A stretch of DNA of 64,000 bases. Origin: an uncultured Nitrospiraceae bacterium. Lineage in GTDB: Bacteria > Nitrospirota > Nitrospiria > Nitrospirales > Nitrospiraceae. Location of the stretch: contig CAVPLT010000001.1 in the NCBI GenBank assembly GCA_963706325.1, forward strand, positions 416,001 to 480,000, written 5' to 3'. The position numbers are program-made. How positions within the stretch are numbered: the stretch's first letter is position 1; each line of letters starts with the position of its first letter. Below are positions 12,001 through 15,000 of this stretch, piece after piece.

Positions 12001-15000
12001 ATGACCGATCAGCCGGTGCGGTATGTGATCTATAGTCATCACCATAACGACCACATTACCGGAGGCCGGGTCTTTGCTGACCAAGCCATCTTTGTCAGCC
12101 ATCAGGCCGCACAGCCTAAAATCCTCGCAGCGGCCGATTCCACGACGCCGGTTCCACAGCTGACCTTCACCGATCGTATGACGATTCACCTGGGTGGCAA
12201 GTCTATTGACCTGATCTACACCGGCAGGAACCATTCGGATAACAGCCTCGTGGTCCTCCTGCCGCAGAACAAACTACTCTTCGCCGTCGACTTCATCCCA
12301 GTCGAGAGCGTCGCGTACCGTGCTTTGCCGGATGGCTATCCTGATGAATGGGTCGAGTCGCTGAAGCAGATCGAACGATTAGACTTCGATACGCTGGTGC
12401 CTGGGCATGGCAAGGTCGGCAAGAAAGATCATGCGCGGCTGTTTCGGGAATACCTCGAAGCGCTCCGCGCAGCCGTGAGCGAGCAGATTCAAGCAGGCGC
12501 GAGCCTGGAGGTCGCCAAGAAAAGCGTCCGGCTTCCCACATACGAACGGTGGTCCGGTTACTCCGACTGGTTCACCGAGAATGTCGAAGGCATGTATCGG
12601 CATCTGTCGCCGCAGTCGAAACAATAGCCGCATCGTTCCCGCCACTCGGCCTTCATCACACCCACTTCTGCGGCCGCTCGTGATCATCCCTACTGGGTCG
12701 GTAAAGAAGAGTAATCGGCCCTGGTAAACCGCGGAACGACCAGTTTTGCAGGCGCTGTCTTCAGAGGGTGGGAGGACTGCGAGGGCGGGAAATGTCTGGT
12801 CACTGCATGACCCTCAGACCAGAGCGCCAGGCAAAGACCAGAAACTGCATGGCCGGCGATGCGGCTGCTAAGGCTTCTTCTTTTTCTTGTCGTTCGAGTT
12901 GTCGGAGAAGAGCAACCATGCGAGGACAACGAAGCCGATCGCGACGCCCGTAACTGCCAGCCATGTGCCGAGTTTATCCATTAAGCCCTCGTCTGTGGAG
13001 GTCCTTGTAACGAAGCCAGGGTGAATGTATCGAGACGTGTCACTTTCAACTGATCGTCCACGGTCACCAGCTTGGCCGACCCTTCGACTACCAAGCGCCC
13101 GCTGGTCCGTTCCCGCAAGACATGGGCAAACGTGATGGACGCTTGGCCGACCGCCGCCAGTTTCGTCTCGACGACTAATGTGTCACCATACCGGGCAGGC
13201 GACCGATAGTCCAGCTCCGCATGCACGACCACAAACTGCGTGCCCTGATCTCGTAGCTTCACCACCGAGACACCCCGTGCATCGAGATACTCGGTCCTCG
13301 CCCGTTCAAAATACTTCAAATAATTTGCGTAATACACCACACCGCCGCAATCAGTATCTTCATAGTAGATTCTAATTTCCATGGGAGCGGATGGCTGATG
13401 ACGGACAGGCGTTGCGCGACGGTCTCGTTACAAATTCAGAATCGGGAATTTGGGCAGTGATGACTCGCTCATGCCGGTGAGCTTCATCACGACGTCGGAC
13501 AGCTGCTGCACCCGCTCGGCTTTGATGACCTCGAAACCGTGGCCGAGAATGGCATGGTGGGCCGCATCGAGCAGTGGCTTCATTTTGGGCCAGTCTCGCA
13601 AAAAGGCCTGCCCCATCTGGTCGCCCAGACCGGCCAGGACCCGGAACTGTCCCTGCAACGGCAACTTGTACTTGCCGTCCACATCGTCCAGATAACAGGT
13701 GCGACAGGTCTCCCGCAGGGCTTCGGGTAGCTGCTCCGGTTGCACATCCCAGGTCTTGATCTGGTACTGCTTGAATAACTGCCGCTGGGCGCAGGCTTCC
13801 AATGCCCGAAGAAGAGCCATCATGGCCCGTTCAGGATCGTGATCATGGGCTCGACGGTGCGCATGGGCCAGCAGATCGAGCGAGACACCTTCCTTCACCT
13901 CGGCCGGGTCGAGAACGAGTCTCTCCAGAAATCCGCTGTTGGCTTTGAGAAAAGGCAATAGGGATTTCAGCCCCGGCGGCCCGCCCCAGAGCGACGCCAT
14001 ATCGAGCGCCTTCAGCGAGGCCTTGAGCTTCTCCCAGGCTTGTCGATAGTGAAATTGTTCCCACAACGCATACCCCAGCGCGAGATCACCCAAGGCGCGG
14101 TAGAGCGGTTTCTGTCCGCCGCTCACGCGAGCCTCCAACGTATGAAACAACGTGGCCGCCGCTCTAAACGACCCATGATTGAACGCCGCACAGGCCTCCC
14201 GGCGCACGCCGACCGCTGCATCGTCCCAGGGATTTCCTTGGAGCCAGCGCTTGGTATGGCCGTCGATGACAATTCCCTCGCCGCCTTCCTGGTCTTTTGC
14301 ATCAACCAGGCTAATGACGCGTGAGGTCCAGGGTTGACAGGCTGAGGCCAGGGCCGCGGCCATGGCCGAGGTGGCCCCGGTCAAATCAACTACCACATCC
14401 CCCACTTGCACATCCCAGGCTTGAAAGAGATCCTGGATCGTCCGTGACAGGGCCTGATGACAGGCGATGACGTCTGCGGGATCCGGTGTGGCGACCCAGT
14501 CCCATCGCTTCGGCATCTGCTGCACCAGCGGCTGCACGGCCTCTTCAACTTGTGCTTTCGCCGACTCCGGCACAAAGAAACAGAGCAATTCCGGCTGCAA
14601 CCGGTTGATCACATAGGCAGCGAGCGACGGCGCATCGGTGAAGGCAAGGATCAGCGCTTTGACTGGGATATCCGGTGGCATATCGTCGAACTATATCACC
14701 GCACTCCGCACCGGTTCAACGAACGATCTTGGCTGACTATCCTTGACCCTCTCGACAAAGACGCCTAGACTTCGCCCAATATTGATTTCGCCTCCTCTTC
14801 TGCGCGAGTACGATGTGACTTGGTGGATCTGGGCATTTCTTGGATTGATCCTGCTGGGCGTGGAGATTTCCACGCCGGGCGGTTTCTACATTCTCTTTTT
14901 CGGACTCTCCGCACTCGTGGTGGCCGCCCTCGTGGGCTTTGGATTGGCTGATGCGGAATGGTTCCAGTGGCTGCTCTTTTCGGCCCTGTCCGTGGCCTCG

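What a model noticed while it worked through the whole genome (the two positions that open the first line are those of the whole stretch)
12981..14681. Vertically inherited, catalytically degenerate Csm6-like CARF-HEPN gene paired with a YbgC thioesterase in a CRISPR-less [...]
g00470 (417 aa) is a full-length Csm6-type CARF-6H-HEPN protein in a genome with no other cas gene and no CRISPR array; its orthologues track phylogeny across Nitrospirales, usually sit just upstream of a YbgC-type acyl-CoA thioesterase (g00469), and have lost the HEPN catalytic Arg and the CARF signature Lys. I read it as a type III CRISPR ancillary nuclease that was domesticated in the Nitrospirales ancestor into a non-nuclease housekeeping sensor or regulator working with the thioesterase. 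That would be an order-wide exaptation of a CRISPR effector outside immunity.
Evidence so far: Pfam Csm6_6H 160-228 and Cas_Cas02710 269-403; NCBIfam 'TIGR02710 family CRISPR-associated CARF protein', the only CRISPR-named row in ncbifam.tsv and swissprot.tsv; only Cas-named Pfam row; no CRISPR-like array among 43 TRF arrays. AF2 with a 60-sequence alignment: pLDDT 95.3, pTM 0.90; best PDB fold matches Thermus thermophilus Csm6 (8jbc, 8jbb, 5fsh, 8jh1), E 6e-13 to 2e-12 over the whole length, 21% identity. Found in 105 of 121 sampled Nitrospirales genomes, one full orthologue each (4 genomes list a second, split or ~30% match); identity 82-87% in the genus, 45-70% in the family, 46-57% in two other families, none in 5 genomes of a fourth. 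The wider family (1307 cluster representatives [...]
(Added by a program. Inside this text positions count along the whole contig: contig position 416,001 is position 1 of the stretch shown here. "Call 12" and the like, gene names such as g00115 and contig names such as C1 are that model's own, and its searches are not shown. The text may have been shortened before it was handed on; [...] marks where a part breaks off. The agent that wrote the report below was given it as the finding of a first reader that could run no searches.)

Follow-up and report, generated by a model that had tools for sequence, protein, structure and literature searches.

The report
Dead Csm6-like gene kept by Nitrospirales
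A relative of a CRISPR helper RNase has lost its signal-binding and cutting residues yet is faithfully kept as an ordinary chromosomal gene across a whole order of nitrifying bacteria, so it must now do some other, still unknown job.

Summary
Window 13428-14681 (-) encodes a full-length TIGR02710/Cas_Cas02710 CARF-6H-HEPN protein with a Thermus Csm6-like fold. The genome is 96% complete and no cas gene or CRISPR array was found in it.

The gene is single-copy and syntenic, found in 183 of 201 genomes of the order, whereas RAMP genes occur in 13 of 201. The gene tree follows the families, and dN/dS is about 0.06-0.10.

The CARF Lys and the HEPN Arg are absent in 90 of 90 orthologues. Most other pocket and active-site residues of the cas-linked family are also replaced. 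The HEPN His survives in 66 of 90; one subclade lost it and stays under purifying selection.

Three additions:
- The exit from cas loci is older than the order. Sister lineages also sit among housekeeping genes, one with intact motifs and one that has lost only the Lys and Arg.
- Type III-bearing genomes of the order carry a second, intact, cas-linked paralogue.
- The thioesterase link is specific to this order (43 of 47 genomes) and not obligatory. A conserved 37-aa membrane micro-ORF follows it in two of the three families.

Best reading: an exapted pseudo-nuclease that acts by binding. A role as sensor, or with the thioesterase, is unproven. Its function is unknown. A PADLOC profile for this clade already exists.

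The parts
13428..14681 (-). CARF-6H-HEPN gene (417 aa), a degenerate member of the TIGR02710/Cas_Cas02710 family
   Evidence: ORF; Pfam, NCBIfam and PADLOC; AF2 and Foldseek to TtCsm6
14232..14681 (-). CARF domain (aa 1-150); ligand-pocket residues replaced
   Evidence: Profile match to the TtCsm6 CARF region. Residues conserved in the cas-linked family (S13, G15, G16, S38, G103, K105, Y124, R130, G136, E143) are changed here.
14367..14387 (-). Degenerate CARF motif II, D99-L-T-G-A-T-S105 (canonical D-[YF]-T-G-G-T-K)
   Evidence: Aligned with TtCsm6 DLTSGTK; 8jbc is the K137A mutant. Lys is present in 0 of 90 orthologues.
13902..14231 (-). 6H helical domain (aa 151-260) with clade-specific Gly-rich loops S187-G-G-x-K191 and G233-G-P235
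   Evidence: Pfam Csm6_6H; secondary structure. The residues are at least 90% conserved in the order and in f17, and not in the cas-linked family.
13431..13901 (-). HEPN domain (aa 261-417) without the catalytic Arg
   Evidence: Pfam Cas_Cas02710 at 269-403. N273, D285, R289, Y291, R374, N375 and S377 of the canonical family are replaced. dN/dS of this domain is 0.04-0.09 within the genus.
13539..13562 (-). Remnant of the R-x6-H motif: A374-H-H-A-I-L-G-H381 (canonical R-N-x-S-x-L-A-H)
   Evidence: Alignment with 120 full-length representatives and with cas-linked paralogues. Arg 0 of 90, His 66 of 90.
12981..13382 (-). YbgC/FadM-family hotdog thioesterase (133 aa), 45 bp downstream on the same strand
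   Evidence: Pfam 4HBT/4HBT_2 and NCBIfam TIGR00051 above cut-off. Adjacent in 43 of 47 genomes. D9-T10-D11 invariant.
12868..12981 (-). 37-aa micro-ORF with one hydrophobic helix and a Lys-rich tail; its ATG overlaps the thioesterase stop (TAATG)
   Evidence: ORF. It is 92-95% identical within the genus. It is found in f1 and in 4 of 4 f3 loci, including those without the thioesterase, and in 0 of 8 f2 loci. No Pfam or NCBIfam family.
14690..14719 (-). Promoter-like site TTGAAC-18-TATAGT (with TG) just upstream of the CARF gene start
   Evidence: Consensus scan: 3 sites found against 1.0 expected. A pattern match only.
12716..12731 (-). Terminator-like hairpin downstream of the micro-ORF. Of the other two minus-strand sites, both lie inside the CARF gene; none lies in the 45-bp gap between the CARF gene and the thioesterase.
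   Evidence: Consensus scan: 4 sites found against 2.0 expected. A pattern match only.

Best explanation
The gene encodes a homologue of the cyclic-tetraadenylate-activated RNase Csm6 of Thermus type (CARF sensor, six-helix domain, HEPN nuclease). It has become an ordinary, single-copy chromosomal gene of Nitrospirales.

Shown:
- It is kept at one syntenic place and inherited vertically.
- It is independent of CRISPR-Cas.
- It is under strong purifying selection.
- It has lost the CARF pocket residues (motif I, the motif II Lys, the 124-143 hairpin) and the HEPN active site (Arg, Asn, Ser and the helix-1 residues; the His as well in one subclade).

Inferred:
- It no longer senses cyclic oligoadenylate or cuts RNA by the HEPN mechanism.
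- It works as a pseudo-enzyme that binds something, either RNA in the former HEPN groove or a protein or ligand.
- A surface that is conserved only in this chromosomal clade may be used for this. It includes two Gly-rich loops at one end of the six-helix domain.

The loss was stepwise:
1. The gene left the cas locus in an ancestor shared with other Nitrospirota lineages.
2. The Lys and Arg were lost.
3. The whole pocket and active site decayed in the stem of the order.
4. The His was lost in part of family f2.

In this order the gene is probably co-transcribed with a YbgC/FadM thioesterase, and in two of three families also with a 37-aa membrane peptide. This hints at a membrane or lipid-related role but does not show it.

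The confidence given is for the core claim (CRISPR-independent, selected, no canonical cOA sensing or HEPN catalysis). Any particular partner or ligand is far less certain.
For: Family and fold.

No cas genes or CRISPR in a 96% complete genome: with the positive control.

Distribution:
- The gene is in 183 of 201 genomes of the order; RAMP genes are in 13 of 201.
- The place is the same in all 19 f1 and f2 loci examined with 6-kb flanks (own, 8 + 8, 2). On one side lie the SIS and GSU2086-family genes. On the other lies the thioesterase in 18 of the 19.
- The gene tree keeps the order as one clade (SH-aLRT 98) and needs only 2 changes of family label for 3 families.

Selection:
- dN/dS is 0.057-0.087 against 14 genus-mates, with the HEPN domain at 0.04-0.09.
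- The median is 0.097 over 54 pairs in the subclade that lacks the His.

Motifs:
- Lys 0 of 90, Arg 0 of 90, His 66 of 90.
- 30 positions conserved in 60 other (cas-type, motif-intact) family members are changed.
- Of the 120 full-length representatives among the best 150, 113 keep the Arg. Five lack it (P0121, P0122, P0123, P0127, P0130), and two more have a gap at that place.

Internal controls:
- In four type III-bearing genomes of the order, a second paralogue with intact K/R/H lies beside Cas1, or beside a 118-repeat array with Cmr genes. The degenerate orthologue is kept as well.
- Relatives outside the phylum lie inside or beside cas genes in 4 of 4 loci examined: a full type III-A module (Cas10/Csm1, Csm2, RAMP) in two, RAMP, a Card1-like gene, Cas1 and Cas2 in one, and Cas1-Cas2 in one.

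Stepwise series.
Against: - There is no experiment on any member.
- His 381 is kept in all f1 and f3 orthologues (38/38, 7/7). Other His and Arg residues lie nearby (H273, H375/376, R276, R277), so an unusual RNase in these families is not excluded.
- I could not read model coordinates, so the closeness of the two Gly-rich loops is inferred from helix order only.
- dS within the genus is about 1.1-1.4, near saturation. The g22 pairs reach down to dS 0.09 and give the same answer.
- The gene was not found in 18 of 201 genomes, among them single-contig ones, so it is dispensable in some lineages.
- Neighbours differ between the sister lineages, so context says little about function.
Confidence: 0.8

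Rival explanations
1. It is still a ribonuclease with a rebuilt active site. His 381 would act with other conserved His or Arg residues, without cOA control or under control of another ligand.
For: His 381 is kept in 66 of 90 orthologues, and in 118 of 119 close cluster representatives. R276 and R277 are shared with the active family. H273 and H375/H376 appear in f1. The HEPN domain is the most constrained domain. The 2013 HEPN survey notes families that lack the Arg but keep the His (passages).
Against: The f2 subclade g22/g26/g28/g30 has Y, F, Q, A or G at 381 and mostly W at 273. It nevertheless keeps the gene (g22: 30 of 30 genomes) at a median dN/dS of 0.097. N273, R289, Y291, N375 and S377 of the active family are also gone.
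Confidence: 0.12
2. It is still a defence gene: an orphan effector, decoy or sponge. It would work in trans with a type III system when one is present, or with an unknown signal synthase.
For: The family is defence-linked elsewhere. PADLOC holds a profile for exactly this clade. In the sister lineage f17, 3 of 5 genomes have type III genes elsewhere in the genome.
Against: Only 13 of 201 genomes of the order have RAMP genes. Those with type III carry their own intact paralogue at the cas locus. The place is fixed, the gene tree is vertical and dN/dS is low, unlike typical defence genes. The CARF pocket is degenerate. No mCpol or Cas10 palm domain was found in the genome.
Confidence: 0.05
3. 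The CARF domain was retuned to another adenine-containing metabolite, such as CoA or acyl-CoA. The protein would then regulate the thioesterase and membrane peptide encoded after it.
For: - The operon-like arrangement holds in 43 of 47 genomes, with 8-45 bp gaps in many.
- The CARF gene and the thioesterase are both missing at the locus in 4 of 5 g15 genomes that lack the CARF gene.
- The micro-ORF follows the CARF gene directly where the thioesterase is absent.
- CARF families without the basic residue were proposed to bind other ligands (Makarova 2014, passages).
Against: - Beyond the Lys, most pocket residues are unconserved within the clade itself.
- The thioesterase is kept without the CARF gene in G014, and the CARF gene occurs without the thioesterase in G111, G007 and G068.
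- The sister lineages have no thioesterase neighbour.
- The four co-losses may be a single deletion in kin.
Confidence: 0.12
4. It is a decaying relic of a lost CRISPR-Cas system with no function.
For: Catalytic and sensing residues are lost. The gene was not found in 18 of 201 genomes.
Against: The frames are intact and full length in all listed matches, with no stops inside. dN/dS is 0.06-0.10 in all three domains. 46 positions are at least 90% conserved across families that are only about 50% identical overall.
Confidence: 0.01

Closest known systems
Thermus thermophilus Csm6 (TTHB152; PDB 5fsh, 8jbb, 8jbc, 8jh1) and the TIGR02710 / Pfam Cas_Cas02710 family (counted as cA4-dependent 'Csx1' in Hoikkala 2024; passages)
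   Same: The same three-domain CARF-6H-HEPN architecture and fold over the whole length. Sequence similarity is detectable by profile (E 1.5e-5). The NPW/6H linker and many structural residues are shared.
   Different: The Lys equivalent to K137 is absent, as are the HEPN Arg and about 30 other family-conserved residues. There is no cas neighbourhood and no CRISPR in the genome. The gene is vertically inherited and order-wide. Clade-specific residues are conserved in the 6H and HEPN domains.
RtcR, and the DET1451 and MA0186 CARF families (CARF proteins not linked to cas genes; Makarova 2014, passages)
   Same: These are CARF domains used outside CRISPR loci. RtcR mostly lacks the basic residue after strand 4, which was read as binding a different ligand.
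   Different: RtcR couples CARF to a sigma-54 AAA+ ATPase and an HTH domain. Here the output domain is a dead HEPN, and no DNA-binding or ATPase domain is found.
Catalytically inactive HEPN domains such as MtlR and Swt1, and the HEPN domains fused to MNT enzymes (Anantharaman 2013, passages)
   Same: The Rx4-6H motif is lost while the fold is kept. Those domains were proposed to act by binding or regulation instead of cleavage.
   Different: Those belong to other HEPN families with other partner domains. None is a Csm6-type CARF-6H-HEPN protein.
mCpol plus CARF-HEPN modules (Koonin and Makarova 2022, passages)
   Same: A CARF-HEPN protein encoded outside full CRISPR-Cas loci.
   Different: Those sit beside a minimal Cas10-like polymerase and are read as abortive-infection systems. 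No mCpol was found in this genome.

Membership tests
TIGR02710 / Cas_Cas02710 (TtCsm6-type CARF-6H-HEPN) | Sequence membership and three-domain architecture | tested here: met
   TIGR02710 at 140.3 bits (cut-off 83.9). Pfam Csm6_6H and Cas_Cas02710 are both above cut-off.
TIGR02710 / Cas_Cas02710 (TtCsm6-type CARF-6H-HEPN) | Fold like solved Csm6 | tested here: met
   AF2 pLDDT 90.2. Foldseek to 8jbc, 5fsh, 8jh1 and 8jbb at E 5e-14 to 2e-13 over 425-445 columns.
TIGR02710 / Cas_Cas02710 (TtCsm6-type CARF-6H-HEPN) | CARF ligand motifs: Ser/Gly-Gly after strand 1 and [DN]x[ST]xxx[RK] after strand 4 | tested here: not met
   Lys in 0 of 90 orthologues. S13, G15 and G16 are replaced. The position equals TtCsm6 K137. 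The motif definition is from Makarova 2014 passages and partly recalled.
TIGR02710 / Cas_Cas02710 (TtCsm6-type CARF-6H-HEPN) | HEPN Rx4-6H catalytic dyad | tested here: not met
   Arg 0 of 90 and His 66 of 90. The canonical form is RNxSxLAHG in 113 of the 120 full-length representatives.
TIGR02710 / Cas_Cas02710 (TtCsm6-type CARF-6H-HEPN) | Encoded with type III CRISPR-Cas | tested here: not met
   No cas genes in the genome. RAMP genes are in 13 of 201 genomes of the order, against 183 of 201 with this gene.
TIGR02710 / Cas_Cas02710 (TtCsm6-type CARF-6H-HEPN) | cA4-activated RNase activity | not testable with these tools
   Needs biochemistry.
mCpol-CARF-HEPN abortive-infection module | Adjacent minimal Cas10-like polymerase | tested here: not met
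   PF18182 and PF22335 have no match in the genome. The neighbours are a thioesterase, NfeD and an SPFH protein.
RtcR-like exapted CARF regulators | CARF fused to a sigma-54 AAA+ ATPase and HTH | tested here: not met
   Pfam finds only the 6H and HEPN domains after the CARF part.
YbgC/FadM acyl-CoA thioesterase (the downstream gene) | Hotdog 4HBT fold and family score | tested here: met
   TIGR00051 at 99.7 bits (cut-off 68.7); Pfam 4HBT and 4HBT_2. D9-T10-D11 are invariant in 20 orthologues. The catalytic role of the Asp is recalled.
Tol-Pal-associated YbgC (TIGR02799) | Equivalog score and tol-pal neighbourhood | tested here: not met
   117.7 bits, below the cut-off of 141.35. None of the ten flanking genes scanned belongs to a Tol or Pal family.

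The most novel reading that the evidence does not exclude
A Csm6-family CRISPR effector was converted step by step into a non-enzymatic housekeeping factor of the nitrite-oxidising and comammox order. The steps were leaving the cas locus, losing Lys and Arg, losing the whole pocket and active site, and finally losing the His. The protein would now use a new conserved surface on the six-helix domain (loops SGGxK and GGP) to bind a ligand or partner. It would act together with the YbgC/FadM thioesterase and a 37-aa membrane peptide in membrane-lipid homeostasis.
Probability: 0.15. Interest if true: 0.8.

Novelty: new variant of a known kind. Interest (0 to 1): 0.62.

Why it matters
Exaptation of Cas proteins is much discussed. 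The known cases involving CARF are a sensor domain joined to a transcription machine (RtcR) or families of unknown role.

Here a complete CARF-6H-HEPN effector is kept with both functional sites dead. It is conserved across an order that holds the main nitrite oxidisers and complete ammonia oxidisers.

Living intermediates exist: one intact but outside cas loci, one without Lys and Arg, one fully degenerate, and one without the His as well. Intact cas-linked paralogues occur in the same order. That gives a natural series for asking what a Csm6 scaffold can do besides cOA-triggered RNA cleavage.

There is also a practical point. Genome annotation ('CRISPR-associated CARF protein') and defence finders (PADLOC profile PDLC01812) will flag this gene as CRISPR or defence in genomes that have neither.

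Tried and rejected
- Complex prediction of the CARF-HEPN protein with the thioesterase, each given as an alignment. The verdict was 'no answer' (score 0.00, controls not run). It counts neither for nor against binding.
- RNA evidence. Only small shares of the query words were held in metatranscriptome contigs. Pieces of 162-252 nt without differences lie on the CARF gene in X1, X2 and X3, two studies in all. X4 holds two diverged pieces. The tool warns that DNA can be present in such libraries. Nothing was laid on the thioesterase or the micro-ORF, and no contig bridges two genes. So there is at most a weak hint of transcription and no test of co-transcription.
- phmmer of the single protein against PDB gave 0 hits at E up to 1. 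The profile of 21 orthologues was needed.
- Makarova 2020 (the CARF census) could not be read by PMC id or by DOI. Its supplements may list this clade and its degree of CRISPR linkage.
- The search for related loci with the mixed alignment A3 failed for lack of a conserved stretch. The single f17 protein was used instead.
- I first labelled the 313-aa neighbour 'deoxyhypusine synthase-like' from memory. Pfam gave no family above cut-off, and NCBIfam names it a GSU2086 family protein. The label was dropped.
- The micro-ORF has no Pfam or NCBIfam family, and nothing like it follows the gene in f17.
The clade-specific residues could therefore not be mapped in 3D.
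Full report
**1. The observation**

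The larger is 13428..14681 (-), 417 aa, ATG start. The smaller is 12981..13382 (-), 133 aa, with a 45-bp gap between them.

The 417-aa protein belongs to the Thermus Csm6-type family:
- Pfam Csm6_6H at 160-228 and Cas_Cas02710 (Csm6 HEPN) at 269-403.
- NCBIfam TIGR02710 over 21-402, 140.3 bits against a cut-off of 83.9.
- An AF2 model from 21 orthologues has pLDDT 90.2 and pTM 0.76.
- Its best solved look-alikes are the four Thermus thermophilus Csm6 entries, E 5e-14 to 2e-13, 21% identity, whole length. Csm6 entries of Enterococcus italicus and Streptococcus thermophilus, and other CARF proteins, follow.

The 133-aa protein is a YbgC/FadM-family hotdog thioesterase. TIGR00051 scores 99.7 against a cut-off of 68.7. 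It is below the cut-off of the tol-pal equivalog.

**2. No CRISPR-Cas in the genome**

The assembly has 4.24 Mb in 8 contigs and is 96.07% complete.
- No match to Cas1, RAMPs, Cmr2, Cas2, mCpol or the Cas10 palm domain.
- The Csm1 model gave two partial hits far below its cut-off, both to its HD part. One was confirmed as an HD domain.
- A script looking for 18-mers repeated three or more times at 40-110 bp spacing found nothing in any contig.
- The same script finds the 118-repeat array of a relative.
- The gene is single-copy.

**3. Distribution, synteny and descent**

In 201 genomes drawn from the order, 183 have a match: f1 86/87, f2 81/87, f3 15/21, f4 0/5. Nearly all have one full-length open frame. 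I call the order Nitrospirales after the names that sources give to near-identical proteins.

Identity falls with kinship: 82-91% in the genus, 54-77% in the family and 49-58% in f2 and f3. The fast-evolving g4 genus of f1 is at 44-45%.

RAMP genes, the mark of type III and other class 1 systems, occur in only 13 of the same 201 genomes.

Around the gene the order of genes is conserved:
- The thioesterase follows on the same strand in 43 of 47 genomes examined (f1 33/35, f2 8/8, f3 2/4). One of the four misses has only 328 bp of flank.
- A SIS-domain (GmhA-like) gene and a GSU2086-family gene lie divergently upstream in all f1 and f2 loci seen with 6-kb flanks.
- NfeD and SPFH genes are inserted between them in part of f1.

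A tree of 95 family members keeps the order together (SH-aLRT 98), f2 (98) and f3 (100). It needs only 2 changes of family label for three families.

dN/dS against 14 genus-mates is 0.057-0.087. All three domains are constrained, the HEPN domain most of all.

This is vertical inheritance under purifying selection.

**4. Both functional sites are dead**

I aligned the protein with 120 full-length representatives (of the best 150 among 2319 hits) and with cas-linked paralogues.
- The family consensus is D-[YF]-T-G-G-T-K in the CARF domain and R-N-x-S-x-L-A-H-G in the HEPN domain.
- The window protein has D-L-T-G-A-T-S105 and A374-H-H-A-I-L-G-H381-G.
- The Lys position equals K137 of Thermus Csm6. 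The profile alignment shows this, and 8jbc is the K137A mutant.

In 90 orthologues from 85 genomes (five genomes entered twice), Lys is present in 0, Arg in 0 (Ala in 86) and His in 66 (f1 38/38, f3 7/7, f2 21/45).

The His-less f2 subclade (g22, g26, g28, g30) has Y, F, Q, A or G there. It still keeps the gene in 30 of 30 g22 genomes, at a median dN/dS of 0.097 over 54 pairs with dS down to 0.09. The selected function therefore does not need the HEPN dyad.

The decay goes well beyond the two signature residues. Thirty positions conserved at 75% or more in 60 other, motif-intact members of the family are changed in the order:
- CARF motif I: S13, G15, G16.
- S38, G103 and K105.
- The 124-143 hairpin: Y124, G126, G127, R130, K132, G136, V138, E143.
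- HEPN residues N273, D285, R289, Y291, R374, N375 and S377.

Conversely, 46 positions are at least 90% conserved in the order but not in the cas-linked family. Many are shared with the sister lineage f17. Examples are S187-G188-G189-x-K191, Y194, W216, K224, G233-G234-P235, K246, D312, D372 and R390.

By the helix order of the model, the two Gly-rich loops lie at the same end of the six-helix bundle. That they form one site is my inference.

**5. Where it came from**

Cas-linked relatives:
- Outside the phylum, relatives at 36-43% identity to the f17 protein lie inside or beside cas genes in 4 of 4 loci examined. Two have a full type III-A module (Cas10/Csm1, Csm2, RAMP) with Cas1. One has RAMP, a Card1-like gene, Cas1 and Cas2. 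One has Cas1-Cas2 only.
- A member of family f28 of the same phylum follows Cmr2-Cmr3-Cmr4-Cmr5-Cmr6.
- Inside the order, four type III-bearing genomes each have a second TIGR02710 paralogue with intact K, R and H. In two (G168, G185) it lies beside Cas1. In G042 it lies beside a 118-repeat CRISPR array and a Cmr module. In G105 it lies about 7 kb from the RAMP genes. All four keep the degenerate orthologue at the usual place.

The chromosomal clade. The degenerate clade sits in a well-supported group of 35 tree rows (SH-aLRT 100). The group also holds the following lineages.
- P0126, a single metagenomic protein with intact motifs and unknown context.
- Family f17, from another class of the phylum, found in 7 of 11 genomes.
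  - It is about 40% identical and has intact K, R and H (one genome and one representative have lost some).
  - In g45 the order is NAD kinase, this gene, Rho, RF1, an EPSP-synthase-fold gene, HisG, HisD. In the g73 locus Rho follows too, but another gene lies upstream. In the g62 locus the neighbours are different housekeeping genes. None is at a cas locus.
  - Three of five f17 genomes have type III genes on other contigs. One 99% complete genome has none above cut-off.
- A metagenomic clade around P0123. It has lost the Lys and Arg but keeps motif I in part, S377 and the His. In three of four contigs a thioredoxin gene lies directly upstream, and in two ThiC follows.

Other orders of the same class had no match (0 of 8 genomes).

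On the tree, the Arg was lost at least twice, the Lys three times and the His four times.

The simplest history has four steps:
1. The gene left the cas locus before these lineages split.
2. It lost the Lys and Arg.
3. The rest of the two sites decayed in the stem of the order.
4. The His was lost in part of f2.

The tree is unrooted, so the direction rests on one comparison. The intact, cas-linked state is the rule everywhere else.

**6. The thioesterase and a third gene**

The thioesterase link is strong within the order but not obligatory.
- The CARF gene stands without the thioesterase in G111, G007 and G068.
- Among genomes without the CARF gene, G014 keeps the thioesterase beside the SIS gene. 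G078 has only a 40-residue remnant. G106, G122 and G116 have neither gene at the locus. The f4 loci lack the SIS gene too.
- The four double losses may be one event in close kin.
- The sister lineages have other neighbours.

I also found a third gene in the arrangement.
- It is a 37-aa ORF (12868..12981, -) whose ATG overlaps the thioesterase stop. It has one hydrophobic helix and a Lys-rich tail.
- It is 92-95% identical within the genus, more than either neighbour.
- It is present in 31 of 35 f1 genomes and in 4 of 4 f3 genomes. In the two f3 loci without a thioesterase it follows the CARF gene directly. It is absent downstream in 8 of 8 f2 loci.
- It has no Pfam or NCBIfam family.

A promoter-like site precedes the CARF gene. 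Two weak terminator-like patterns lie inside the CARF gene. None lies in the 45-bp gap between it and the thioesterase, or further on before 12731. These are pattern matches only.

**7. What is in print**

I found no description of this clade. The searches were:
- 'CARF domain superfamily + SAVED + classification'.
- 'TIGR02710' (2 papers, both on type III accessory genes, seen as listing only).
- 'CARF, HEPN, not associated with CRISPR, Nitrospir'.
- 'Nitrospira + Csm6'.
- 'CARF, HEPN, catalytically inactive, non-defence, exaptation'.
- 'CARF, RtcR, outside, CRISPR-Cas, housekeeping'.

Passages read:
- Anantharaman 2013 lists Csm6 (Cas_Cas02710) with the motif conserved. It discusses inactive HEPN domains as binding or regulatory modules.
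- Makarova 2014 names RtcR, DET1451 and MA0186 as CARF families not linked to cas genes. It reads loss of the basic residue as a sign of a different ligand.
- The 2025 CRISPR classification, Koonin and Makarova 2022 and Hoikkala 2024 say nothing on this clade in the passages shown.

The 2020 CARF census could not be read.

PADLOC-DB holds a profile, PDLC01812 'CARF1--CARF_HEPN', that is specific to this chromosomal clade.
- Scores: window 786 bits, f2 553, f3 586, P0123 441, f17 366, P0126 338.
- Cas-linked relatives score only 144-204 bits and hit other profiles best.
- The sequences are therefore already catalogued, without a described role. That the profile derives from the 2020 census is my recollection.

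**8. Verdict**

The finding is real and more than chance. It is a well-documented case of a complete type III ancillary effector kept as a housekeeping pseudo-enzyme across an order, with a graded series of intermediates.

What it does is unknown. I commit to a binding role (RNA, protein or small ligand) without HEPN catalysis or cOA sensing. A link to the thioesterase and the membrane micro-protein is a lead rather than a result.

Noticed in passing
window 12868-12981 (-): A 37-aa micro-ORF with one hydrophobic helix and a Lys-rich tail overlaps the thioesterase stop codon. It is more conserved than its neighbours in f1 and f3 and absent in f2. It has no known family.
   Followed up: partly
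L063-L066 (f17 genomes G246, G224, G208, G257): An intact-motif relative (about 40% identical) lies directly upstream of Rho, away from cas genes. In the three g45 loci a NAD kinase gene lies upstream. One 99% complete genome of this family has no type III genes above cut-off.
   Followed up: partly
L143-L146 (metagenome contigs): The clade around P0123 has lost only the CARF Lys and the HEPN Arg. In three of the four contigs a thioredoxin gene lies directly upstream of the gene; in two, ThiC follows. An alpha/beta hydrolase gene lies upstream in two of them.
   Followed up: partly
L072:9112-17500 and L073 (G042): A CRISPR array of 118 repeats (36-nt repeat, about 71-bp period) lies between an intact TIGR02710 paralogue and a Cmr2-Cmr3-RAMP module. 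A Card1-like gene and a Cas_APE2256 gene are also there.
   Followed up: partly
L076:2192-4093 (+): In a Syntrophaceae-labelled MAG, a TPR protein with a TOTE-type archaeo-eukaryotic primase domain sits between the cas-linked CARF-HEPN gene and Cas1-Cas2.
   Followed up: no
L024:3854-3964: The micro-ORF copy of this f1 genome has an in-frame stop and a non-ATG start. It may be broken there.
   Followed up: no
L067 (G252) and P0127: Motifs are also lost within the otherwise intact f17 clade. L067 has H to Y only. P0127 has K to Q, R to C and H to Y. These are further independent losses.
   Followed up: partly
window position 1: The tools place the window at contig C1:416001-480000.
   Followed up: no
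window 16895-17836 (+): The conserved divergent neighbour is a GSU2086 family protein (NCBIfam, 448 bits). It has only faint likeness to ornithine cyclodeaminase or homospermidine synthase Rossmann parts, and its function is unknown. It is 62-95% identical across the order, f4 included.
   Followed up: no
window 11716-12627 (+): A metallo-beta-lactamase-fold protein whose best hits are SoxH-related zinc metallohydrolase models. It is far below the cut-offs of all named beta-lactamase families.
   Followed up: no
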